A stretch of 64,000 nucleotides of DNA from the human T2T-CHM13v2.0 reference genome, Homo sapiens: assembly GCF_009914755.1 (NCBI RefSeq), contig NC_060944.1; one strand, written 5' to 3'. The notes below the pieces were generated by a model. That model saw nothing but the letters and a program-made list of their open reading frames with translations, was not told the DNA's origin and searched no databases. The translations under genes were made by a program, and so were the position numbers. Below, one piece after another: positions 48,429 to 64,000 of the stretch. Within the stretch, counting starts at the first letter, position 1, and each line of letters starts with the position of its first letter.

Positions 48429-49869
48429 TACAGTCACACCGCCCCCTCACCTGGCCTCGTTCTTCTTTCTCCCCCTCCATTTTAGAAACGGGTCCTGGAG
48501 CCCATCTAGGGAATGTAGTGCAGGGCTGCCTCCTGCTTCTCCCAGACCGGCTCTGGCTTTGAGCCCCAGCTGGTCAACCCAGTGTTGATGACAGGAGCCC
48601 AGGACCTGGGGAGGACAGGGGGCCGCTGGGCCTAGGCCTGGCCTTCCTGACCATTTTGATTTTCTGGGTGCACACAGCACAGACTCCAGGTGGAAGTGCT
48701 GTGGGCTCCTGAACTCTCTACAGCCCGGCAGCCTGCACGGAGGCCGTTCTGTCTCTCGAGGGTCCTGGAGCCTGCGCTGTGTGAGGTCGACTGTGCTTCC
48801 GTGCCCCTGGGCACTGTCCTAGGTGATAAAGGGCAGGGCCCCGAAGCCAATTCGGATCTCCCGGGAGCCCCGCCAGGATTCAGGGAACCCCTGAACCTGG
48901 GCTCCAGGAAAAGCAGGTGAGGCGGGTCCAAGGCACCCAGGAGCCAGGCTCCCACTGGCTTGGGTGACAGTACAGGCCAGGACCTTGTCCCTGCCATACA
49001 TCCCCTTTGCTGTCAGTCGCAGCAGGGCTGCCTGGGGCCCCCCAGGAAGGGATTGGGTCTGAGGCCCCACAGGGAAGGGGACAGTGCCCACCTCTCTTCA
49101 GCTAGGGCCGAGGGTGAGGACCTGGCTGCAGATCTGTGGGACACGTGGCCCTAGGCTGTGTCCTGAGCCCCTGGCCACCCCACCCCAAGGGTCCCCAGAA
49201 TCCATGTGCCCCCACAGCCCTGGAAATCAAGGTGACTTTCTGGGCCTGATCGCAAGCAAATATTTATTAACTGCCTGCTGTGTACACAGCCCCGGCTGGG
49301 CCTGAAAAGGCAAGAACTGGCTCCAAGGTCCTGGCCCTGTCTGAGGAAACTGTCACCCAACACAATGACAGCAATTGTGGGCAGCAGCCGGGGAGACGGA
49401 GCCGGAGCTCCTGAGCAGGGGCGGCTGCAGCCGGGGTTAGGAGCCTTCACGGGTCATTAGCTTGCTTAATGGTGCTGCAGTAGGCCCCGCTTGCCGGCCT
49501 CCCCTGAGACACCCAGAAGAGGCAGAGGTCCTGAGGTGGCTGGCTCCTTCTCCAGGGCAGCTGGCACCGTCTGCTCCTGCTACCAGGGGTGCGCCCGCAT
49601 GGACACAGGATGCAGGGTCAGGGAGCAGGGGAGGAACTGAGTCTCCCTTGTGCAGGCACAAAGGCGGCCTCAGGACCAGGGACCCAGCTGGGCACCAGCT
49701 GCTGGCTGGCCTGGCCTGCCTGCCGGCGTCGGGGGGCCCACGGGGGTGAGCCAGAGGCCTGGCTTTCCCTGGGGCCAAAGGGCTCTAGGAGGCAACGGCT
49801 GCTTCCCCAGGCCCCACCAGAGCCCTGGCAACAGGGTCATGGGGCGGCTGGCGGTGCTGGGGGGCAGGT

Positions 49870-52800
49870 GGGTGCTCTGGGTCCACTTGATCATGGTTTC
49901 CGGGGAGCAGTGCAGGAAGACGAGCTTGGTGCAGAGCCCCCACAGGCAGGCTAGCGCACAGCCCCAAGGAAGTGCTCCCAGATGAACTTGGCCGAGAGCA
50001 TCACCATGGCCACGCCAAGTAGGCGGGGCTAGGACCCCACCCACACCCCCTCCCTGGAATCCCAGGGCCCACCTGGGTGATGTTATCCCAGAGACAGGGA
50101 CAAGAGATGAGAGGATGGAAATGTCTCTGGGAAAAAGGCTGCAGGAGCTGGAGGTGATGAGCAGAGCAGGCGAAGGAAAGGGAGGCCCCTCCTCCCTCCA
50201 TGTTAGAGAAGGGAGCCCTAGATCTGGCCACCAGCGGCCTGTGCACACCTGGGGCTGAGGGCACACAGGGCTGCACATACACACTCAAGGCCACTGTGAG
50301 AACAGGTGAGCAGGGCCAGAGGGCTATGGAAAGCCCGGCTGAAGGCTGCACCTCCAGGCTGAAGAGAGCTTTACCGGCATCCGCCAGGAAGCCTGGGCTC
50401 TGGGGCTGTGTCATTGTAGATGACCATTTCCAGGTCGTGGCCACAGCCCCGGTTCTGGTCACAGCTGGGCCACCAATCCTCCTGCGCCACCCACCACTTA
50501 GCCATCGGGCCGTCTTCAGGGCATCGGCCGGCCTCAGCTGCTGCAGCCAGACCCTGGCGTTGCGGAAGGCTGGCCAGTCCACATCCTGCAGCCTACGAGG
50601 GTGCGCTGTGTGAGGGGTACAGGCCCCGGCCTGGGAGAGGACCCAGATGCAGGCCCCCAGAACTGATGGAAAATCTCTCCCCAGAGGTCAGGTCTTTGTC
50701 AGCAAAGGTGGGAAACCAGGGGAGCGGCGGCACCAGGCTCCAGAGACATTTGAAATGACTTCAGAAGACCCAGGGCCACTCAGGGTGACCACATCGGACA
50801 GCTGCCTCCCACAGGCTGTGACGGATGTTTAAGCAAGGGATCGATGGTCACCTGACTCTCAGGAGTGCAGGAGAGGCCACTGAGACCCATTCAGAAGGGA
50901 CTGGGTGTTGGTCCCTGTGGACTCGGCCTCTGGCTGGTGGTGAGGAGGAGGATTTCTCACCACCCATCCTCTGGCCCCTGCTGCCCAAGGGAGCAGACTC
51001 CTGTGAGCTGGGTTCCGGGAAGTCCGTCTCCAGCAGGAACTCCAGGCCAAGCGCGCATCTCTGTGATCGTGTGTCACCATGGCGGTGCGTGCGTGAGTGC
51101 ATGCGTGTGCACTGGTCTGTGGCCTGTGGTGCGTGAGTTCCACTAGGACCCATGTGAGGTGGAGGGTCTTCCACCTCCCCTCCCATTCGGGCCCTCCCTG
51201 TGCCACACAGACACCCATCTGTGCCTTCCCCTTCTGTGCCACCAAAAATGGAAGAGATAGACACTTAAAAGAAGCAACTCAAATGGAATGAAATCGTTTC
51301 TGTTGGGGAATGCTCAAGACGTTCAATCATCTTAGAAAATCCCACCCCACCTCCCGCTGCAGATTAATTACTGTAAGTGCAACTCCAATCGGGCTGGTGA
51401 CCCCCCAGGAAACCTCTGAAGCTGTCCCAGGCTGTTCCCAACATGGGACCTCCACTCTGGCACACCAGGACCCGAGGCCCCTGACAGGCTCCTCGTTCCT
51501 GCCTCGCTCAAGGCTCAGGTCCCCCACCTGAAATACCCCCTCCCACCAGCATCTCCTGCCTCGCTCCTGCTGCCAGGTCCCCAAAAGCTCTTGTTCATGA
51601 GCTCGCCTGCCATCCACAGCCCCCACCAGAACCCAAGTGGCTGTGGAATTCGCTGCCCTGATTCTCTGCCCAGAGCCTCGGTCCAGACTGTGTTCCCTGG
51701 CGAATTAGTGTTCAGCATTTTTGTTTATTTGTTTGTTCTTTAACAAAAGTTGTTTTGGTTTGAGATTCAGCAAAAATACACACTGCATTCAGCTTCCTCT
51801 CCATTCAGGATTCAGTAAATTGGTTGTTTTCCTGTCTGCTTCGAGTCCTTGCCTCAAATGAGCCTTCAACAAGATAATGCATTGAAAAGCCCTTGGAAAA
51901 GTACCAGGCCCCGCGCACATGTACAGCCCAGGCCCCACGCACATGGACGGCATTGTCATCATGCAGCTCTCGGAGGCAAGGCCAGCAGCACACAAAGCTC
52001 CCACCTCACCCACATTAGGCTCAGCTTCTGGGGAACATTGGCCCAGGCGGGGGTCCTTCCCCACGGCCTCACAAATAGGGCTCAGGAGGGGTGGGGCTGC
52101 CTTCATGCAACCCTGCTGCTAGGCTGGTCCCCAAAGCCCAGACCTGTGCCCCTCCCCATGGCCTGGGCTTGCTTTCTTCCCTTGCACAGGGCCAAGGGGA
52201 CAAGGATGCAGCAGATGAGATGCTAACACACCCTCAGGGAGGTGACAGTCCTTCCTGACATCCAACCGATGGGCCATCTTTGCTTTCAGTGCCTGCTGGA
52301 GTCCCGAGGGCTTTGGGGATCAGTCCAGGCAGCATTCTGCAGTCAGGAAAACAACATTGAAAACCAAAACCCACAATTACAAAGCATAGAAGCCTGGTTT
52401 ACGTTCACCGATGGCACAGTTAGAACCCACGGCAGCCTCCAGCTGAAACGATCTGTTCCCATTGGCTGCATAAGAAACTCAGTGATGTCATGGACCCCTT
52501 TGCCTCCCTTAAATCAGTTTAGCAGTTACCCCAACTTCACAACCGTGAGTTCTTTTGAGGGCCTGAGACCCCCCTTTCTCCTAATGAGTTGGATAAGTTT
52601 CTGTGGCATCCATGACCCAGCTTGTTCCAGTGCATGAAGGCCCAAAGCCAGCTTCCTTGTCCAACAATATTTGCTAAACACTACTGGCATGCAGTCCCTG
52701 AAAAGCAGATCCCTCCTGCAGGTGTGTCTTCCCAGCCTGCAAGTGGAACGGCTTCCGGAAGGAGGAGCCGGCACGGCCCTGCAGGAAGCTGGAGGAGGGC

Positions 52801-54754
52801 TGTGCCCCTGGCACCCACAGGGGCGGGGGTGACTGAGGACTCCCCCCTGCCCCATCGGGGTGTTATTAGCCATTACCAGAAGAGCTAATGTGTCATCAGC
52901 AATTTGCCACATGCAAGGCAGCCCCTGGGAGGTGCTGTTATCTTCCCCCCTATTCCAGCAGGTGCAGAAGCCCCAGGTCGCACAGGTTGTTTGTGAAAGG
53001 GAAGGGGGCATCCAAACCCCGATGGCCCAGCAGATTCACGTATGCTGGCTGATGAAGGTGGGAGGGAGGGAGGGAAGTGAATAAATAGAAGGCCGGACAG
53101 AGACATACAGCCAGGCCAAAAGGACTCATTACTGTTGAATATCCCAGACTCATTACTGTTGAATACCCCGGGCCTCGGTCTCCTCATCTGTAAAATGGAT
53201 GGGCCTTGCAAAACAAAAACCTTCATGACTTTGGATTTGTCATTGATTTCTTGGCTATGACACCAAAGGCACAGGCAGCAAAAGAAAAAATAGACAAATT
53301 GGACTTCATGCAAATTAAGAAATTTTGCACATCAAAAGACAGTATTCACAGAGTAAAAAGGCAACCCACACAATGGGAAAAACATTTACAAATCATATAC
53401 CTGATAAGGCATTGATATTCAGAATATAAAAACTCCTAAAGTGCAACAACAACAATAAAAGAATCTGATTCAAAAACACTCAAAGGACGCTTCAATAGAT
53501 AAAAAAGGACACAAATGGCTCAAAAGCACAGGAAAAGATGCTCGGCATCACCGTCATTCAAAAAATAGAAATTAAAACCCCGGTGAGAAACCACGCTGCA
53601 CTCATTAGGAGGGCCACTATCACAAAAACAGAAAATAACAGGTGTTGGTAAAAATGTAGGGGAATCACAACGCTGGCGCACGGCCGGTGGGAATGGAAAA
53701 TGGGTCAGGTGCTGTGAAAAACAGTATGGCGGTTCCTCAAAAGATTACAAATAGAATGACCACGCGATGCAGCAACTCCACTTCGGGGTATACACCCCAA
53801 AGAATTGAAAGCAGGGCCTCGAAGAGATATTTGCACACTCAGGTTCACAGAAGCATTATTCACAATCGCTCAAATGTGGATGCAACCCAAATACCCATCA
53901 GTGGATGAACAAGTAATAATCAAATGTCACAAATACAAGGTGTGGATGTTCAGCCTTAAAAAGGAAGTTCCAACACAGGCTACACCGTGGATGAACCTTG
54001 AGGAATTATGCTAAGTCAAATAAGCCAGTCACAAAAACACAAATACTGTAGGATTCCACTTTTACGAGGTAAGTTAGAGCAGTCAAAATCATAGAGACAG
54101 AAAGTAGGAGGCTGGTTGCCAGGGGCTGAAGGGAGGGGGGAATGAGCAGTTAGTGTTGAACGGGGATAGAATTTCCATTTTACGAGATGAAAGGGGTCGT
54201 GGAGATGATGGTGGTGCGGGTTGTACATTATGAATGCACTTAATGCCACTTGACTATACATTCAGAAATGGGGAAGATGGCAGATTTTATGTTACGTGTA
54301 TTTTACCACAATAAAAAGATAATACATTTTAAAAAATATAGATGGGCCCTGGACTCCTCTGGCCACCTGTGCCCCGGGAGGCAGGATGGGTCCGTGTGCC
54401 ATGCCCAGGTCAGCAGAACTGGGCTCAAATCCCGACTCTGCCACTTTTGTAGCTTTGAGTCCTGGCGTCAGTCAGCCAGATTCTTCACCTGTGCAAGGGG
54501 GACATATGTCCATGAAAGTGCCATGTAAATGGGCAAAAGACGACTCCTTTGCTCACGTGGTAAACCCCACCCTGCAACAGTTGTGCTCGGCAGAAAACCC
54601 TCTGTGCCAGGGCACTGCTGGAGCAAGGAGGGGCTCCTACAGGCTCTCTCGGGTGTGCGTGAGCGTGCAGGCCAGTGGGTCTCGTGTTTCCTTATCCACG
54701 TAGTATACCACGTGCTCGCTGGCTACTTCCACATTCATGACCAGAGACTCATTC
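49870..54754 (-). pseudogene. PIEZO1P2: 3' end of an unprocessed PIEZO-family pseudogene (exon remnants 54641-54754, 50375-50592 and about 49870-50028); symbol tentative
   Basis: LCTKLVFLHCSPETMIKWTQ, WWV...LEMVIYND...SPGFLA and AKFIWEHF resemble the PIEZO1 C-terminus; exon order and splice sites preserved; frameshifts, a stop and deletions present. Confidence 0.82.
53210..54330 (+). mobile_element. L1MB-like 3' end
   Basis: Degenerate ORF2 end plus 3'UTR (cttaatgccact...ttttatgttacgtgta). Confidence 0.75.
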
Positions 54755-55124
54755 CTGAATTGGGGAAGGAAAAGCCAAGTGCAGATCCGGAGAAACAAAG
54801 GTAGCCCCAGATGCTCGGGCCCAGCTTCCTTCCCCATCCCAGTCTGCACCCTGCACCCTCTGCCCTCTCAGCTCGGCTTCCTCCATCCAATCTTCGCTTG
54901 GCCCTGAAAATTCCAGGCAGAATAGACACACATGGCTCCTGCCCACTCCTGTGCAAACTCGTGGGCCCCCGAAGGAAGACATGGTATCTTCCTATGGCTG
55001 GGAGATGTCGCAGTCCCATTTCCTCCCCATGCTATAAATAAACGACTCACAGACAGCAGTTCTAGGCAGAGGGAATGGTGTCAGGGAACACTGCAGGCCC
55101 CCACCTCCCCTCCGTGTGTAGTTT

Positions 55125-55650
55125 TGTATTCACTCATTCATTCAATGAACATTCATTGTGCTCCTGCTCTGTGTCAGGTGCTGAGAGACGAAGTTGAGGA
55201 GAGATGGCCCCTGCCCTCCCAGGGTTCACAGTCCCGCCAGGAGGACAGGTGCTCATCACAGTATTACCCAAAGAAATACACCACAAACTGGGATGACTGC
55301 CGTGAAGTATGGGCAGGTGGTGTGATGAGGACATTTTAAAGGGAGGCCTGTCCTTGCTTGGGGAGGGGACCAGGTAGGGAACGCCTCCCTGGAGGTATAG
55401 ATACATGAGCTGAGAGTGCAAGGATGTGAGTACTCAATGGTGCAGAAGATGGGAGAAATCAGTTCCAGTGCAGGGTGCAGCATGTGCAAAAGCCCAGGCT
55501 GGAGTGGGCTGTGACAAGTTACAGAAATGCAAAGGAGGCCACTGCTGCTGAAAAGGAGAGGGGGGCACGGGGATGGGGGAGTGAGATGGGGTGGGAGAGG
55601 TGGACACAGGCCTTGCAGGTCACGAGAGAGTGCTGTGTGAATATGACCAT
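55125..55650. mobile_element. L2 fragment
   Basis: cattcattcaatgaacattcattgtgctcctgctctgtgtcagg; cagcatgtgcaaaagccc. Confidence 0.6.
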
Positions 55651-56551
55651 TTCCCTGAGGACGCCCCAGTCCTCAGCACGGGGTGGCTGGAATTCCCACA
55701 GAGAGCCACAGGCTTACTGGCTTGAGAGTGAGGGAGTGGAATTTGGGCTGTCAGAGCCCAGGGAAGTCCCAGGGATGGGGGGAAGTGAGAATGTCCTGCA
55801 AGGCAAGAGACAGAGCACCCTGAAGCTCGGTCTGACTCCTGTTTCTGGTCATGGTAGAGCTGCAGGGGCTGCATTTAACTACTGCTTTAGATGAGTTAGA
55901 AAGCCAGACAAATCTATAGAAAGCATTGTTTCAGACACAAGAAACATGCAGCCCCAGAGTGATGCCTGCGAGAAATGGAACAAATGAGATGCGCCTCCAA
56001 CCAGCCCAGCTCCCTGCCTGGGGAGAGTTTCCAGGTGTGGCCCAGGGAGGAGAAACCCAAGCCAAGCCCAGGCAGGTGGCCTCCATGAGCTCAAGGGACA
56101 GAGTTGAACATCCAGGATGGCCAAGGCAGCTGGAGTTTGCTGGACACAGAACTCGGAAGAAGAGAGTGGCACAGAGAGAAAGGAATCCAGAGACGGGCAG
56201 GGGGTTCCCCTGAGTCTTCATGGAGTACTGAGTACTCCTCAGCACATGTGAGGAGGACACTACCCCAAGCTAGGGAAGGAACCATCCTAAGGTGCAGAGG
56301 GGACAAGGACCACTCACACAGCACCCAAACAGGCCACATTCCCAAGAGGCAGGAGCACAGCAAAGGCTTTGAGGTCTGAACTGCCATATACAACAGCACT
56401 CAAGCTCCAGGCTCACCTCTGAGCAGCGCATGCACTGGTCACCTGCAAGTCACACAGCCAAAGCTCTTAAGAGAGAACTAACATCTGAACCACCGCTCAT
56501 GGGAGAGAAAGAATGTGCAGTGTGAATTTCACTGGATTCATTGCCCGCTAA

Positions 56552-56665
56552 AGAGGAGGAGGAGGAGGAGGAGGAGGAGGAGGAGGAAGAGTTGGATGAT
56601 GAGGAGTGGGGGAAGGAGGAGAGAAGGAAGAGGAAGAAGAAGAAGAGAAAGGTAGAAAAGAAGGA
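56552..56665. repeat. (GAG)n/purine-rich tract
   Basis: Directly visible. Confidence 0.9.
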
Positions 56666-57800
56666 GAAATAAATTAGCATTCTCCAGAAGATTTAAACAG
56701 GATCCAGTCTTCTAACATACAAAAACTACAAGTCCAGGATGAAAACCCAACATTATTTGACATACCAAGAATCAGGAAAATCTGACCAATTCTTAAGAGA
56801 AAATACAATCAAAAGATGCCAATCCTGAGATGACCCTGATGCTGGAATTGTCGGATGAAGACTTCAGAGAAATGATTATAACTATCCTTCACGAAGTAAA
56901 ACTTAAAAACATTGAAATGGATGGAAAAATAGGAGTTTGACAAAGAAAAACTATAAAAAAGAACCACTAAATGTGATGTGGTATCCTAGAACAAAAAAGG
57001 ACATTAATGTAAAAACTGGTGAAATCTAAGTGGAATCTGGAGTTTGGTTGGTAGGAACCTACCAATGTTGGCCTGTTGGTTTTGACAAACATTCTATGGT
57101 ATGTTAATGTAAGATGTCAAAATTAGGGAAAACCGGGTGAGAAGTAAATGGAAATGCTCTGTGTTTTATCTTGGCAACTTTTCCGTAAATGGAAAATTAT
57201 TACAAAATAAAAAGTCTAAAGAATCAATATGGCAGAAGAAAGAGCCAGTAAACTTGAATATAGATCAATAGAAATTATTCTAACTGAAGAACTGACAGAA
57301 CAAAAAGATTTCAAAATATGAGTGCCTCAGGGACTTGTTAGACAATATCGAAACATCTAATACTCTTATAATTGGAATCCCTAAGAGAAGACAGATTGGT
57401 GGAGATAAATATTTTTTGAAAAGAATGATAGCAGAACCTTTCCAAATATGGGAAAAGACATAAATTTACAGGTTCAAGAAGTTTAGAGCACTCCAAACAG
57501 GATGAAATCAAAAAAATGCACACCCAAACACATCATAATCAGATTACTGAAAACCAAAGATAAAGAAAAATCTAAAAAGCAGCCAGAGAAAAAACATACC
57601 TACCGCAGTGATAAACAATGACTGAAGATTAACCAGAAAACATGGTTGTCAGAAGACATGGGAACACATCTTTAAAAACATGAAACAAAAGAACTGTCAA
57701 CTCAGAATTCTACATAGAGCAAAAATTGTCAAGAATGAAAGCAAAAAAAAAAAAAAAAAAAAGACACACTCTGAGGAAGAAGAAAAGACTTAAAGAATCC

Positions 57801-58110
<310 letters not shown>

Positions 58111-58759
58111 CTAAAAGAAAGGATGTTGTTCAGACAAAGGAATTACACCGGTATAAGACTTGGAACTTCAGGAATGAAGGAAGAACAACAGAAAAGGTAA
58201 ATATCTGGTAAATATAATGGGTTACTTTTCTTCTCCAAAGTACCTAAAATGTATATAAGCTATAAAAAGCAAATATTATAACATTATCAAGGGCATTAAA
58301 TGTATGTAGATTTAATACTTATGACAATTATAACAGAGGAGTTAAAAGTATAACATAAAGAGGGTAAAGTATGACACAGAGAAGGTAAAGATAACCACAT
58401 AGTTATAAGCCTTCTATATTTTACATGCTACGATGAAATACTAACTCTAAATAGATTATGAAAAGTTAGGTATGTATATAATGCCTAAAGCAGCAACTAA
58501 AAAGTAATGCAAAGAGATACAGCAATAAAAGCCAATAAATAAAATAAATAGAATATTAAAAATATTCACATAATTCAAAAGAAGCCAGAAAAAGGAACAT
58601 AGAAAACAATGAGAAAATAGAAAAATAATAAAATGGTAGACCTAAATGTAACTATATCAATAATGACATTAAATTGAAACAATCTAAATATAGCAATGAA
58701 AAAAATTGTCACATTGGATTGAAAAAAAAAAAAAAAACAGGATCCAATCATATGCTACA

Positions 58760-59115
58760 TGATATGGTTTGGCTGTGTCCCCACCAAAATCTCATCTTGA
58801 ATTCCCAGATGTTATGGGAGCAACCCAGTGGGACGTAATTGAATCATGGGGGCAGGCCTTTCCTGCGCTATTCTCATGATAGTGAATTACTCTCATGAGA
58901 TCTGATGGTTTTGAGAAACAGGAGTCTCCCTACACAAGCTCTCTCTTTGCCTGCTGCCATCCATGTAAGACATGATTTGCTCCTCCTTGCCTTGTGCCAT
59001 GACTGTGAGGCTTTCCCAGCCATGTGGAACTGTAAGTCCAATTAAACTTCTTTCTTTTGTAAATTGCCCAGTCTCAGATATGTCTTTATCAGCCACATGA
59101 AAACAGACTAATACA
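58760..59115 (-). mobile_element. THE1 (THE1C-like) solo LTR
   Basis: TGATATGG...ACTAATACA termini; 5-bp duplication ctaca/ctata; strand tentative. Confidence 0.85.
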
Positions 59116-59149
59116 CTATATATAAGAAATACACTTTAAATATAATTGT

Positions 59150-59352
59150 ATAGACTGGAAATTAGTAAACTATGGCTCAGAGGGCAAATGCAGCCCATGG
59201 CCTGTTTTTAAGAATGGTTTTTACATTTCTTAAGGGTCGTGAAGAAGAAAAGGAGGGGAAGAAAGAGGTAATAGAAACCATATATAGCCACAAAACCTAA
59301 AATATTTACTATTAATAACTGGCCCTTTGCAGAAAAACGTTTGCTGGCCCCT
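59150..59352. mobile_element. MER58-like hAT MITE
   Basis: aaactatggc...cctaaaatatttact...ggccctttgcagaaaaacgtttgctggcccct. Confidence 0.65.
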
Positions 59353-60845
59353 CAATTGATAGATTAAAAGTAAAAGGATAAAAATGATATACCAAGCAAA
59401 TACTCATCAAAACAAAGCAGAAGTGGCTATGTTACTATCAGATAAATAAGACTTCAGAGCAACAAAAAATTACCAGGTACAAATAGGGGTGTTACATAAT
59501 AATAAAATAATCAATTCACCAAGAAGATGTAACAGTCCTAAACAGTAGATTCCCCAATGACAGAACTTCAAACGATATGACACAAAAACTGATAGAACTA
59601 AAAGAAGAAATCCACAGTTATGTTTGGAGACTTCATCACTTCTTTCTCAGTATAGAATACATAGATGGAAATTCAGCACAAATTTAGAAGACCTGAATAA
59701 CACTGTCAACTTGACCTAACTGATGTTTATCAGCCACTTCAGCCAACAGTAATGGAACATGTATTCTTTTCAAGTACAAATGGAACATTCACCAAAATAG
59801 ATCATATTCTGGGCCATTAAAAGCTTAACAACCTTAAAAGAATTAAAAATTATATGATGTATAGTCTCTGACCATCAAGGACTTAAACTAGAAATCGACA
59901 ACAGAAGGATATCTGGAAAATTCACAAACATTTGGAAATTACACAACATACCTCTAAATAATTTGTGTGTCAAACAGAAAGTGCCAAACAAATGATCTAA
60001 GATTATACTTTAAGAAACCAGAAAAAGAACAAATTAAACCCAAAGAAAATAGAATAAAAGAAATGATAACGATAAGGGCAGAAATTCGTATACTGAAAAC
60101 AGAAAAATAGAAAAATAAATTAAACCAAATGTTAGGTTTTTGAAAATATTTAATACACTTGATAACTCTCTAGGGAGACTGACTGCAATAAATAGAGAAA
60201 AGACACAAATTATAAATATCAGAAATAAAAAAGGAGATACCACTACAGACACTACAGATATTAAAAGAATAACAAGGTGATACTATGAAGAATGCTACCC
60301 ATAAATTAACAATCTATATAAAATGATGGATTCATTGAAAGACACAAAACACCAAAATTCACCCAAGAAGAAAGTGTTAACCTGATATGCCTTTGTACTA
60401 AAGAAATTGAATTCTTATTTTAAGACATTCCAATACACAAAACTCCAGGCCCAGATGCTTTCATAGGCAAATCCCACTAAACATTTAATGATGTAATAAT
60501 ATCAATTATATCCAAGCTCTTTCAGAAAATAAGAGAGCACTTTCTAACTCACTTAATGAGGCCAACATTATCCTTCCTGATATCAAAAACAAAGACCTTA
60601 GAAGGAAACTAAAGGTCGATAACTCATACACATCTGCACAAAAATCCTCAACAAAGTAGTGGTAAGTCAAACCCAGCAATATACAAAAAGACAATGTATT
60701 ATGACCAAACGAGGTTTATCCTGGGAATGCAAAGCTGGTTCAGCATTAGGAAATACATTAATGTAATTCATCATGTTAGCATGCTAAAGAAGGAAAATCA
60801 TGTGATCATTTCAATAAATGAGGGAACAGTACTTAAGAAAATTCA

Positions 60846-61195
<350 letters not shown>

Positions 61196-62288
61196 AAAAA
61201 ACCTCTCAGCAAACTATGAACACAAAGGTTTTCAATCTGGTAAAGGGTATCTACAAAAGAACTACAGCTAACATTGCACTTAATGGCAAAAGACTCAAAG
61301 TTCTCCCAAGGCAAGGATATCTATTCACCACCATACTGAAAGCCCTAGAATGTGCAATAATGCATGAAAAAGTTAAAAAAAAAAAAAAAAAAAGAACTTG
61401 CAAGGAGGAAATAAAGGCAGATAACATGACTATCTGTGTAGAAAATGCTATAATCTACTGTATTCTACAGAAAAGTCTCTAGAATACTAAGTGATTTTAG
61501 TAAGGCCAGAGGACACAAGGCCAATATCAAAAATCAGTTGTATTTCTATATATTAACAATGAATATTTCAAATATTAATTTTAAAAATCAGCATCATACC
61601 CATGTTCATAGCAGCTTTATTTTCAATAGCCAAAAGGTAGAAGCAACCCAAGTCTCCATCAATGGATGGATGGATAAATAAAATGTGATACATGCATACA
61701 ATGTCTGTATATTCAGCGTTAAAGAGGAAGGAAATTCTGACTTATGGTTCAACTTGGATGAACCTTGAAGACATTATGCTTAAGTAAAACAAGATTGTCA
61801 CGAAAGGACAAATACTATTATTACTCCACTTATATGAGTTCCCTAGTCAGATTCATAGAGACGGAAAGCATTATGGGGTTTCCAAGGGATAGGGGAAGGG
61901 ACACTAAAGAGTTCATGTTTAACAGGGACAGGTTTAGTTTTACATCATGGAAAAGAGTTCTGTGGTTGGATGGTGGTGATGGTAGCACACCATGTGAATG
62001 TACTTACTACCACTGAATTGTACAGTTAAAAATGGTTAAGATACATTTTATATGTTCATTGTACCACCATTTTGAAAAATTTCAAAAGTCAGGTTTAAAT
62101 GGGAAGTCTAGAGCTAAAACATTGCAATATCTCACATGAAAAATTCACTAAATGTACTTAACAACATAGCAGAGACAGCAAAAGAGAGGGTCAGTAGACT
62201 TAAAACAGGTAAATAGCATAACACAGAAAAGAAAGATGAAGGAGAATGAATCGAGTTCCAGTGACCTTTCAGACAATATAAATCAGCT

Positions 62289-62292
<4 letters not shown>

Positions 62293-62335
<43 letters not shown>
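62293..62335. repeat. (CA)n microsatellite
   Basis: Directly visible. Confidence 0.95.
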
Positions 62336-62346
<11 letters not shown>

Positions 62347-62707
62347 TTAGAGGGAGAGGATGGAACTGAAAGACTATTTGAAGAAAAATAGCCAAAAATT
62401 CCCCAAATTTGGTAGAAAAAAAATCAATTAAGATCCAGAATGACCAGCAAAAACACAAGCAAGATGAATGTAAAGAAAACCATGAAAAGAAGGTCATAAT
62501 CATGTTGCTGAAAACCCAAGATAAAAAAAAGTTTCAAAAGCAGAGATAAAAGACGTTACAATCAAGGGTGACAGTACAAATGACACCGACTTTTCTCAGG
62601 AACAATGAAGATTAGGAGATAAGAGAACAACATCTTCAAATTTCTGCATTAGGAAAAAAATTTGCAAACCTCTCAACTCAGAATTCTATAGGCAGCAAAA
62701 ATATCTT

Positions 62708-63012
62708 GGCTGGGCGCAGTGGCTCACGCCCATAATCCCAGCACTTTGGGAGGCCAAGGCGGGTGGATCACCTGAGGTCAGGAGTTCAAGACCAGTCTGG
62801 CCAACATGGTGAAACCTCGTCTCTACTAAAAATACAAAAATTACCTGGGCGTGGTGGTGGCCGCCCGTAATCCCAGCTACTCAAGAGGCTGAGCTAGGAG
62901 AATCGCTTGAATCCAAAAGGCAGAGGTTGCTTTGAACCAAGATCATACCATTGCACTCCAGCCTGGGCAACAAGAGCGAAACTCGGTCTCAAACAAACAA
63001 ACAAACAAAAAA
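62708..63012 (+). mobile_element. AluS with (AAAC)n tail
   Basis: Full dimer. Confidence 0.9.
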
Positions 63013-63035
63013 TACATCTTTAAAAATGAGGATGA

Positions 63036-63514
<479 letters not shown>

Positions 63515-63612
63515 AATAGTGACATTTTCAAATGTTGAAAACAGTAACAATAGGAACAACAAAAAACTGAGAATTTATTACTAGTAGACTTGCCCCACAA
63601 GATCTTCTAAAG

Positions 63613-63833
63613 CAGGGTGTCCAATCTTTTGGCTTCCCTGGGCCACAACGGAAGAATTGTCTTGGGCCACGCATAAAATATACTCACACTAATGATAGCT
63701 GATGAGCTAAAAAAAAAAAAAAATCACAAAAAAACTCATAATGTTTTAAGAAAGTGTATGAATTTCTGTTGAGCCGCACTCTAAGCTGTCCTGGGCTGCA
63801 TGCAGCCCACAGGCCACGGGTTGGACAGGCTCA
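63613..63833. mobile_element. MER30 hAT MITE
   Basis: cagggtgtccaatcttttggcttccctgggccac...ggttggaca; 8-bp duplication ttctaaag. Confidence 0.88.
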
Positions 63834-64000
63834 TTCTAAAGGATGTTGTGACTGAAGGTAAATGACAGCAGATAGAACTCAGATCTAAAGGAAGAAATAA
63901 AAAGCAACTAAAATGGTAAAACATGGATTATTTAAAATAATTTTTTTTGAATTTTCTTAGAAGACAACTGACTGCTTAACCAAAAATTATGACATCATAT

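What the first reader, a model, noticed from the sequence alone, without database searches (positions are those of the whole stretch)
49870..54754. Fossil 3' exons of a third PIEZO channel gene antisense to NPEPL1
Seen: three spliceable remnants on the - strand, in gene order. (a) 54754-54641, ttcag|G...CT|gtagg, an open 114-nt exon: (R)NESLVMNVEVASEHVVYYVDKETRDPLACTLTHTRES. (b) 50592-50375: WPAFRNARVWLQQL / AKWWVAQEDWWPSCDQNRGCGHDLEMVIYND / QSPGFLADA, with two compensating frameshifts. (c) 50028-49870: GVAMVMLSAKFIWEHFLGAVR* / LCTKLVFLHCSPETMIKWTQ. Known (from memory): PIEZO1 ends ...YLGVRIQL...EWWVIE...LPMVIFSDKVSPPSLGFLAGYG|IMGLYVSIVLVIGKFVRGFF...LYAKLIFLYRSPETMIKWTRE, covering the cap domain, pore inner helix and C-terminal domain, with an intron near the same position. 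Inference: the retained introns and strong divergence from PIEZO1/2 point to an ancient unitary pseudogene (the lost vertebrate Piezo3 paralog), not a retrocopy. I recall a PIEZO1P2 annotation at 20q13.32 but cannot tell whether it includes these terminal exons.
Basis: partly seen in the sequence, partly recalled or inferred. Interest (0 to 1): 0.88.

Follow-up and report, generated by a model that had tools for sequence, protein, structure and literature searches.

The report
Unannotated tail of dead human PIEZO3
The blocks are the decayed last four exons of the human remnant of PIEZO3, a third mechanosensitive-channel gene lost in humans; the gene's death is already known, but current annotation stops short of these exons.

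Summary
On the minus strand, 1.3-6.3 kb beyond the 3' end of NPEPL1, lie remnants of the last four coding exons of a Piezo gene. A hedgehog Piezo3-type protein aligns to them collinearly (E 4e-8, 1e-3, 1.6e-16, 2.6e-7; reversed-sequence control: nothing below E 0.97). Two blocks are significant against the whole genome. In a maximum-likelihood tree the human sequence sits inside the third vertebrate Piezo clade (support 100/99), next to hedgehog and sheep, not in PIEZO1 or PIEZO2. The four blocks match the last four PIEZO2 exons one to one, so this is not a retrocopy. They carry at least five frame changes, two in-frame stops and an 85-nt deletion. What is new is small. RefSeq's PIEZO1P2 ends 19 kb short of these exons. 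PIEZO1P1, which the preprint suggests is a piece of PIEZO3, is a PIEZO1-derived fragment. The blocks are not antisense to NPEPL1; they are antisense to the predicted gene LOC124904942.

The parts
54641..54754 (-). Exon remnant (a), cap domain. It is homologous to the PIEZO2 exon chr18:10840004-10839867. The frame is open, with AG before and GT after, and a split first codon as in PIEZO2.
   Evidence: hedgehog residues 184-228, 50% identity, E 4.4e-8; whole-genome E 5.2e-3.
52260..52336 (-). It is homologous to the PIEZO2 exon chr18:10837408-10837322. AG lies at 52338/37 and GT at 52259/58. It joins (a) in phase. One extra base at 52278 shifts the frame.
   Evidence: vs PIEZO1, E 0.001 in a small database; 15 of 19 residues identical to hedgehog, E 1e-3; same identity to sheep.
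50375..50612 (-). Exon remnant (b), the end of the cap domain. It has two frame changes, and the GT donor follows 50375. The 5' boundary is uncertain (50585-50630). The donor phase differs by one base from PIEZO1's.
   Evidence: linked HSPs, E 1.6e-16; Piezo3-clade HMM E 1.5e-5; whole-genome E 1.8e-7.
49764..50028 (-). Terminal exon remnant (c): pore inner helix, C-terminal domain and a mammal-type tail. It has an in-frame TAG at 49953-49951. About 34 codons are replaced by 17 nt, an 85-nt deletion. There are two further frame changes and a stop in the tail.
   Evidence: vs PIEZO1, E 2.5e-5; E 2.6e-7 vs hedgehog; sheep tail 64% identity down to 49764.

Best explanation
These are the 3'-terminal exons of the human unitary pseudogene of PIEZO3. 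PIEZO3 is the third vertebrate Piezo paralog, born in the early vertebrate genome duplications and lying between NPEPL1 and GNAS. The rest of the remnant is annotated as PIEZO1P2, 19 kb and more upstream on the same strand.

Shown here: the exons kept their ancestral order, strand and intron positions. They have since decayed through frameshifts, stop codons, an 85-nt deletion and the apparent loss of two cap-domain exons.

Inferred: no channel can be made, and the sequence has drifted without protein-level constraint for tens of millions of years. It does nothing as a coding sequence. Any remaining role would be as DNA or RNA within the GNAS imprinted neighbourhood.
For: Collinearity with PIEZO1: open-frame pieces of the PIEZO1 gene hit chr20:60566431..60499868 on the minus strand. 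Of 17 HSPs at E<=1e-3, 13 (12 places) lie on one diagonal.

Collinearity with hedgehog Piezo3-type P0065: it aligns through window-scale coordinates 73901-73803, 73292-73146, 54756-54613, 52335-52279, 50612-50410 and 50019-49797. The reversed-sequence control was clean, and whole-genome E-values are 1.8e-7 and 5.2e-3 for two window blocks.

Identity of the human row:
- hedgehog 167/246 (68%)
- sheep 63%
- turtle Piezo3 51-53%
- PIEZO2 rows 34-43%
- PIEZO1 rows 32-41%

Tree: careful IQ-TREE, 48 rows by 598 columns. The Piezo3 clade including the human row has support 100/99; human with hedgehog and sheep 100/100.

Exon structure: the four blocks correspond to the last four PIEZO2 coding exons, with the same split codon before (a).

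Lesions: frames; stops.

Genome-wide: only PIEZO1, PIEZO2, PIEZO1P1 and this locus match in the human genome.

Paralogon: chr18 runs RAB31-VAPA-APCDD1-NAPG-PIEZO2-GNAL-TUBB6; chr20 runs RAB22A-VAPB-APCDD1L-...-PIEZO1P2-GNAS-TUBB1.

Relative rate: in 126 columns shared by three mammals, 21 changes are unique to human, 6 to hedgehog and 15 to sheep.

Literature: the preprint reports the gnas-piezo3-npepl1 synteny and names PIEZO1P2 as the human remnant.
Against: - Pfam and PDB do not recognise blocks (a) and (b) directly. The PF12166 genome scan missed the window. Recognition of (a) and (a') rests on mammalian Piezo3-type proteins only.
- Hedgehog residues 97-183 (two cap exons) were not found between 54756 and 73146.
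- I placed the human row in the alignment through its pairwise match to hedgehog. That inflates its closeness to hedgehog, though not its preference for turtle Piezo3 over PIEZO1 and PIEZO2.
- The mammalian comparators are short gene models (437, 221 and 491 aa), and I could not check whether they are intact genes.
- Synteny in other species comes from the preprint and was not tested here.
- The timing is a rough inference.
Confidence: 0.93

Rival explanations
1. A recent duplicate or retrocopy of PIEZO1, as the name PIEZO1P2 implies, or of PIEZO2.
For: The HGNC/RefSeq name. A 49-nt stretch of block (c) is 88% identical to PIEZO1.
Against: - Introns of about 2.3, 1.65 and 0.35 kb sit at ancestral positions.
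- Protein identity to PIEZO1 and PIEZO2 rows is only 32-43%, against 68% to hedgehog Piezo3-type.
- The tree excludes it from the PIEZO1 and PIEZO2 clades, each supported 100/100.
- The 49-nt match covers the C-terminal motif shared by all Piezo proteins.
Confidence: 0.02
2. Chance open frames and chance similarity in GC-rich DNA.
For: GC is 61-68% across 48.5-51 kb, and long ORFs occur on both strands. Single-block scores against PDB and Pfam are weak. Block (a) has a stray hit to an alpha-2-macroglobulin domain at E 0.067.
Against: - In one search, 9 of the 19 HSPs at E<=10 in the real sequence reach E<=1e-2, all on the minus strand and in gene order, against 0 of 14 in reversed sequence.
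- The Piezo3-clade HMM gives E 1.5e-5 and 7.6e-4 in the real sequence, against a best of 7.7 in reversed sequence.
- Two blocks are significant genome-wide.
Confidence: 0.01
3. The remnants have been reused, either as exons of a PIEZO1P2 non-coding transcript or as regulatory DNA of the imprinted STX16-NPEPL1-GNAS domain. On this reading they are not simply dead.
For: - Exon (a) keeps an open frame and both splice signals, and (a') keeps both splice signals.
- The preprint cites GTEx expression of PIEZO1P2 in spleen and testis.
- A parent-of-origin methylation QTL lies upstream of PIEZO1P2 (PMC6437195, passages).
- A Gnomon model is transcribed across block (b) on the other strand (finding's annotation).
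Against: No expression, splicing or conservation data could be examined here. A 38-codon open frame surviving by luck is not unlikely. The other exons carry many lesions.
Confidence: 0.08

Closest known systems
PIEZO1P2 (RefSeq/HGNC pseudogene, chr20q13.32)
   Same: Same gene remnant, same strand. Its exons continue the same collinear series.
   Different: The RefSeq span is chr20:60523803-60548945, which is window-scale 73803-98945. It stops at the end of the exon at 73961-73803. It omits the exon at 73292-73146, all four window exons, and upstream matches as far as 60566431. The name implies descent from PIEZO1, which the tree contradicts.
Vertebrate Piezo3 (zebrafish si:dkey-11f4.7; Dong et al., bioRxiv 2026, PMC13228305)
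   Same: Same clade in my tree. Same gnas-piezo3-npepl1 position as the preprint reports. The preprint shows the zebrafish protein passes calcium on mechanical stimulation.
   Different: The human copy is broken. The preprint does not describe these terminal exons, and it suggests PIEZO1P1 as a leftover part of PIEZO3. I read sections 5 and 6, the abstract and passages. Its supplements and figures were not available.
PIEZO2 and PIEZO1 (functional paralogs)
   Same: Same exon-intron layout over the last four coding exons, the same cap, inner-helix and C-terminal-domain order, and the same C-terminal motif.
   Different: Only 32-43% identity to PIEZO1 and PIEZO2 rows of other species. Mammalian Piezo3-type sequences carry a long tail after the shared C-terminal motif, which PIEZO1 and PIEZO2 lack.
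PIEZO1P1 (chr20:61244779-61244997)
   Same: A fragment covering the same last-exon region as block (c), on the same chromosome arm.
   Different: It is PIEZO1-derived. It is 83.4% identical in DNA to PIEZO1 over 493 nt, running through the stop codon and the 3'UTR to within 8 nt of the PIEZO1 gene end. It falls in the PIEZO1 clade at 100/100. It therefore cannot be the missing end of PIEZO3, which sits in this window.

Membership tests
Piezo channel family (Pfam Piezo_cap PF12166) | Significant match to the cap / inner-helix / C-terminal-domain profile | tested here: inconclusive
   Direct Pfam scan gave E 0.03 (14.4 bits, cut-off 26.9), for the (c) ORF only, and nothing for the other pieces. 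Through hedgehog P0065, itself Piezo_cap at E 1.6e-95, all four blocks match.
Piezo3 clade | Groups with Piezo3 of other vertebrates rather than PIEZO1 or PIEZO2 in a tree | tested here: met
   Careful IQ-TREE: the clade of 20 Piezo3-type rows plus the human row has support 100/99. PIEZO1 and PIEZO2 clades are each 100/100. My clade labels come from last-exon motifs and the tree, not from database names.
Piezo3 clade | Lies in the gnas-piezo3-npepl1 synteny block | tested here: met
   In the human genome the remnant lies between NPEPL1 and GNAS. Synteny in other species is taken from the preprint and was not tested here.
Unitary pseudogene | Disabling lesions in the ancestral, intron-bearing locus | tested here: met
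   In the window: at least five frame changes, a TAG at 49953-49951, a stop in the tail and an 85-nt deletion. Introns sit at PIEZO2 positions.
Unitary pseudogene | No functional copy elsewhere in the same genome | tested here: met
   The whole-genome six-frame search with P0065 gave 16 matches: PIEZO2, PIEZO1, PIEZO1P1 and this locus only. Closed regions are not shown, so absence is not absolute.
Unitary pseudogene | Intact functional ortholog in other species | not testable with these tools
   I saw only C-terminal protein fragments. [quoted passage not shown]
Processed retrocopy | Exons abut without introns; poly(A) tail | tested here: not met
   The blocks are separated by about 2.3, 1.65 and 0.35 kb, with AG and GT signals at their edges.

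The most novel reading that the evidence does not exclude
The terminal exon remnants are not inert. With splice signals intact at (a) and (a'), they may still be spliced into PIEZO1P2-derived non-coding transcripts. Alternatively they may act as regulatory DNA in the imprinted STX16-NPEPL1-GNAS domain, where parent-of-origin methylation effects map next to PIEZO1P2.
Probability: 0.08. Interest if true: 0.5.

Novelty: already known. Interest (0 to 1): 0.3.

Why it matters
It settles where the human PIEZO3 remnant really ends. The pseudogene spans at least chr20:60566431-60499764, about 66.7 kb, against 25 kb in RefSeq, and it reaches to within 1.3 kb of NPEPL1. It also corrects a suggestion in the only paper on Piezo3: PIEZO1P1 is a PIEZO1 fragment, not a stray piece of PIEZO3. 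And it flags the 'protein-coding' model LOC124904942 as an open frame lying antisense on a dead exon. A complete exon map is what is needed to date the loss across primates and other mammals. None of this changes the biology already proposed.

Tried and rejected
**What led nowhere or was discarded**
- Unmasked tblastn of PIEZO1-gene open frames was swamped by Alu and L1 matches. A loose threshold gave only noise. I kept the E<=1e-3 run on the repeat-masked sequence.
- Pfam and PDB searches of single blocks were mostly blank. The alpha-2-macroglobulin hit for block (a) (E 0.067) was set aside once hedgehog Piezo3-type matched the same block at E 4.4e-8.
- The first protein search, with PIEZO1 exon 50, returned only PIEZO1 and PIEZO2 types.
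- Placing the pieces with mafft --addfragments gave overlapping, unreliable columns, and one piece was in the wrong frame. I replaced it with pairwise mapping onto the hedgehog row.
- The 6-residue piece at 52277-52260 mapped poorly (2 of 3 residues) and carries no weight.
- The two missing cap exons were sought with tblastn and with an HMM, without success. An HMM hit at 64737-64871 (E 1.5) is out of order and was taken as chance.
- The third protein search found one further mammalian Piezo3-type model, from pilot whale. A proboscis-monkey hit proved to be PIEZO2.
- The searches see only proteins within a length window, so full-length Piezo3 proteins were out of reach. That all mammalian comparators are fragments is partly an effect of that limit.
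- I could not map the preprint's GRCh38 span onto T2T. Its length (43,290 bp) is close to the distance between the exons at 60566431 and 60523146. This suggests, but does not show, that Ensembl's model also stops before the window.
- No primate or other mammalian DNA was available, so lesions could not be dated.

**Rows dropped before the tree**
I chose 46 of the 130 proteins then on file by hand as clade representatives. Models with out-of-frame C-termini were left out, except P0003.
Full report
**What is in the sequence**

- Block (a), 54754-54641, follows ttcag and precedes gtagg. It is open in the frame that starts one base in. My frame-1 translation shows stops only because the exon opens with the last base of a split codon.
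- Block (b) runs in one frame, slips into a second and returns to the first. It ends at a GT donor after 50375.
- Block (c) begins after an AG at 50030/29 and reads through the inner-helix-like stretch. It meets a TAG at 49953-49951 and resumes in another frame at 49936 with the C-terminal motif shared by all Piezo proteins.

The blocks lie in DNA of 61-68% G+C, which explains long open frames on both strands. None falls in an annotated repeat.

**Where the blocks sit**

NPEPL1 ends at 48449 on the plus strand. The blocks are therefore downstream of it and convergent with it, not antisense to it.

RefSeq's PIEZO1P2 is chr20:60523803-60548945 on the minus strand. That is window-scale 73803-98945, entirely outside the window and 19 kb upstream of block (a). 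It is listed without exon rows. The only annotated feature overlapping the blocks is the Gnomon model LOC124904942 on the plus strand. Its first coding exon (50200-50600) lies antisense over block (b).

**Is it Piezo, and beyond chance?**

Open-frame pieces of the PIEZO1 gene were searched against repeat-masked chr20:60498001-60574000. They gave 17 HSPs at E<=1e-3. Thirteen of these (12 places) fall on one minus-strand diagonal, from chr20:60566431 to 60499868, matching PIEZO1 chr16:94806376 to 94786076. The other four (two places) are off the diagonal and look like shared repeats. Only one diagonal hit is in the window: 49868-49936 against the last 23 PIEZO1 residues, 61% identity, E 2.5e-5.

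Direct database tests were weak.
- The (c) ORF hit only Piezo1 and Piezo2 chains in the PDB: 4 of 4 hits at E<=10, with E 0.36-0.92.
- The same ORF hit only Piezo_cap in Pfam, at E 0.03 and below the cut-off.
- Block (a) and frame B of (b) found no Piezo. Block (a)'s best PDB hit was an alpha-2-macroglobulin domain at E 0.067.
- A genome scan with PF12166 listed PIEZO1, PIEZO2 and PIEZO1P1, but not the window.

**A third Piezo type**

Two protein searches returned about 130 C-terminal Piezo fragments from named public sources. Their last exons fall into three types: PIEZO1, PIEZO2 and a third. The third type is seen in shark, bichir, teleosts, turtles, crocodile, lizards and snakes. Among mammals it appears in hedgehog (P0065, 437 aa), argali sheep (P0125, 221 aa) and, from the third search, pilot whale (P0162, 491 aa).

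Hedgehog P0065 aligns to the chr20 region in one collinear minus-strand series:

| Hedgehog residues | Window-scale coordinates | Identity | E-value | Block |
|---|---|---|---|---|
| 1-33 | 73901-73803 | 67% | 8.9e-8 | upstream exon |
| 48-96 | 73292-73146 | 73% | 4.4e-16 | upstream exon, one stop |
| 184-228 | 54756-54613 | 50% | 4.4e-8 | (a) |
| 224-242 | 52335-52279 | 79% | 1e-3 | (a'), new |
| 248-315 | 50612-50410 | 56-63% | 1.6e-16 (linked) | (b) |
| 333-434 | 50019-49797, three pieces | 48-67% | 2.6e-7 | (c) |

The sheep tail extends the match to 49764.

Controls:
- The real sequence gave 9 HSPs at E<=1e-2 out of 19 at E<=10, all on the minus strand. The reversed sequence gave 0 of 14, best 0.97.
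- A profile of 17 Piezo3-type fragments scored 50404-50508 at E 1.5e-5 and 49874-49936 at E 7.6e-4. The best reversed-sequence hit was 7.7.
- Against the whole genome, P0065 gave 16 matches, all in PIEZO2, PIEZO1, PIEZO1P1 or this locus. Block (b) scored E 1.8e-7 and block (a) E 5.2e-3.

Window 52336-52260 is preceded by a pyrimidine tract and AG, and followed by GT. Its first base completes the codon left open at the end of (a), so (a) and (a') join in phase. One extra base at 52278 then shifts the frame.

Mapping a chimpanzee PIEZO2 protein onto human PIEZO2 shows that the last four coding exons correspond one to one to (a), (a'), (b) and (c). Those exons are chr18:10840004-10839867, 10837408-10837322, 10835001-10834810 and 10833905-10833651. 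The split codon before (a) is the same as in PIEZO2. PIEZO1 has short introns at the same places.

**Which Piezo?**

The translated pieces were placed in an alignment by their pairwise match to hedgehog. The human row's identity to other rows is:
- hedgehog 68% (167/246)
- sheep 63%
- turtle Piezo3-type rows 51-53%
- PIEZO2 rows 34-43%
- PIEZO1 rows 32-41%

The careful maximum-likelihood tree (48 rows, 598 columns) recovers three vertebrate clades (quick tree).
- The human row is inside the third clade (100/99), with hedgehog and sheep (100/100).
- PIEZO2 and Piezo3 are sisters with weak support (85/65), as the preprint also reports.
- The placement next to hedgehog is favoured by how I built the row. 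The preference for reptile Piezo3 over PIEZO1 and PIEZO2 is not.

Within the human genome the neighbours support an old duplication. Chr18 carries RAB31-VAPA-APCDD1-NAPG-PIEZO2-GNAL-TUBB6. Chr20 carries RAB22A-VAPB-APCDD1L-STX16-NPEPL1-PIEZO1P2-GNAS-TUBB1. That these gene pairs are paralogs is from my own knowledge.

**State of decay**

In the window I count:
- one frame change in (a')
- two in (b)
- a donor phase at the end of (b) that no longer fits the start of (c)
- a TAG in (c)
- about 34 codons replaced by 17 nt, an 85-nt deletion
- two further frame changes and a stop in the tail

Hedgehog residues 97-183, which in PIEZO2 are two exons, were not found between 54756 and 73146.

In the 126 columns shared by human, hedgehog and sheep, 21 changes are unique to human, 6 to hedgehog and 15 to sheep; 11 columns differ in all three. 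Against a tortoise, hedgehog keeps 126 of 181 residues and human 93 of 181. By recalled neutral rates for the human lineage, about 17-25% of residues replaced fits drift over much of the time since the placental radiation. This is inference and cannot date the loss.

**PIEZO1P1**

The 219-bp PIEZO1P1 at chr20:61244779-61244997 covers the same last-exon region as block (c). Its DNA is 83.4% identical to PIEZO1 over 493 nt. The match runs from inside the last exon, through the stop codon and the 3'UTR, to within 8 nt of the PIEZO1 gene end, and is followed by a short A-rich stretch. It falls in the PIEZO1 clade at 100/100, on 73 columns and a long branch. It is most likely a 5'-truncated PIEZO1 retrocopy. 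A small DNA duplication is not excluded.

**What is known**

Searches for 'PIEZO1P2' (4 papers) and 'Piezo3' (16 papers, one relevant) found Dong et al., bioRxiv, 18 May 2026. I read its abstract, outline, passages, and sections 5 and 6. The preprint:
- defines Piezo3 from zebrafish si:dkey-11f4.7
- shows the gnas-piezo3-npepl1 synteny
- names PIEZO1P2 as the human remnant
- suggests PIEZO1P1 'is likely a rudimentary part of PIEZO3'

It does not mention exons between PIEZO1P2 and NPEPL1. Its supplements were closed.

Two other papers mention PIEZO1P2 only as a landmark: one for a parent-of-origin methylation QTL, one for a GNAS deletion (passages).

**Verdict**

The increment is an exon map of the 3' end, including one new exon and a longer last exon; a longer true extent for the pseudogene; and the reassignment of PIEZO1P1 to PIEZO1.

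Noticed in passing
window 50200-50832 (+), LOC124904942: The Gnomon 'protein-coding' model has its first coding exon antisense over the dead Piezo3 exon (b). Its 137-aa ORF matches no Pfam family. It lies in 61-68% GC DNA where long ORFs occur on both strands. It looks like a chance open frame.
   Followed up: partly
L003:1231-1713 (chr20:61244515-61244997), PIEZO1P1: It is 83.4% identical to the PIEZO1 last exon plus 3'UTR, almost to the poly(A) site, with an A-rich stretch after it. It is PIEZO1-derived and retrocopy-like, contrary to the preprint's suggestion that it is part of PIEZO3.
   Followed up: yes
window 49764-49877: Mammalian Piezo3-type models run on past the shared C-terminal motif, but in different frames: hedgehog and sheep in one, pilot whale in another. 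Human DNA matches both. The tail seems conserved as DNA rather than as protein, so some of these models may be read-through of decaying genes.
   Followed up: partly
tree (no window coordinates): The stem branch of mammalian Piezo3-type rows is very long (0.49 changes per column), against 0.05-0.08 for neighbouring branches. Sheep also has many unique changes. This hints at relaxed constraint before the separate losses.
   Followed up: no
window 54643-54753: Block (a) gives a borderline PDB hit to the alpha-2-macroglobulin receptor-binding domain (E 0.067). I judged it chance once the Piezo3 match was found.
   Followed up: yes
window 54756-64000 and on to window-scale 73146 (L008): No trace was found of the two cap-domain exons expected here (hedgehog residues 97-183) by tblastn or HMM. 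They may be deleted or decayed beyond recognition.
   Followed up: partly
chr20:60549000-60566431 (L011-L013): Four PIEZO1-collinear exon matches lie upstream of RefSeq's PIEZO1P2 5' boundary: 60556789-872, 60560968-61171, 60565271-426 and 60566282-431. The annotation is therefore short at both ends.
   Followed up: no
chr18 vs chr20 gene order: The order RAB31-VAPA-APCDD1-PIEZO2-GNAL-TUBB6 on chr18 is mirrored by RAB22A-VAPB-APCDD1L-PIEZO1P2-GNAS-TUBB1 on chr20. This is a tidy paralogon visible in the human genome alone.
   Followed up: partly
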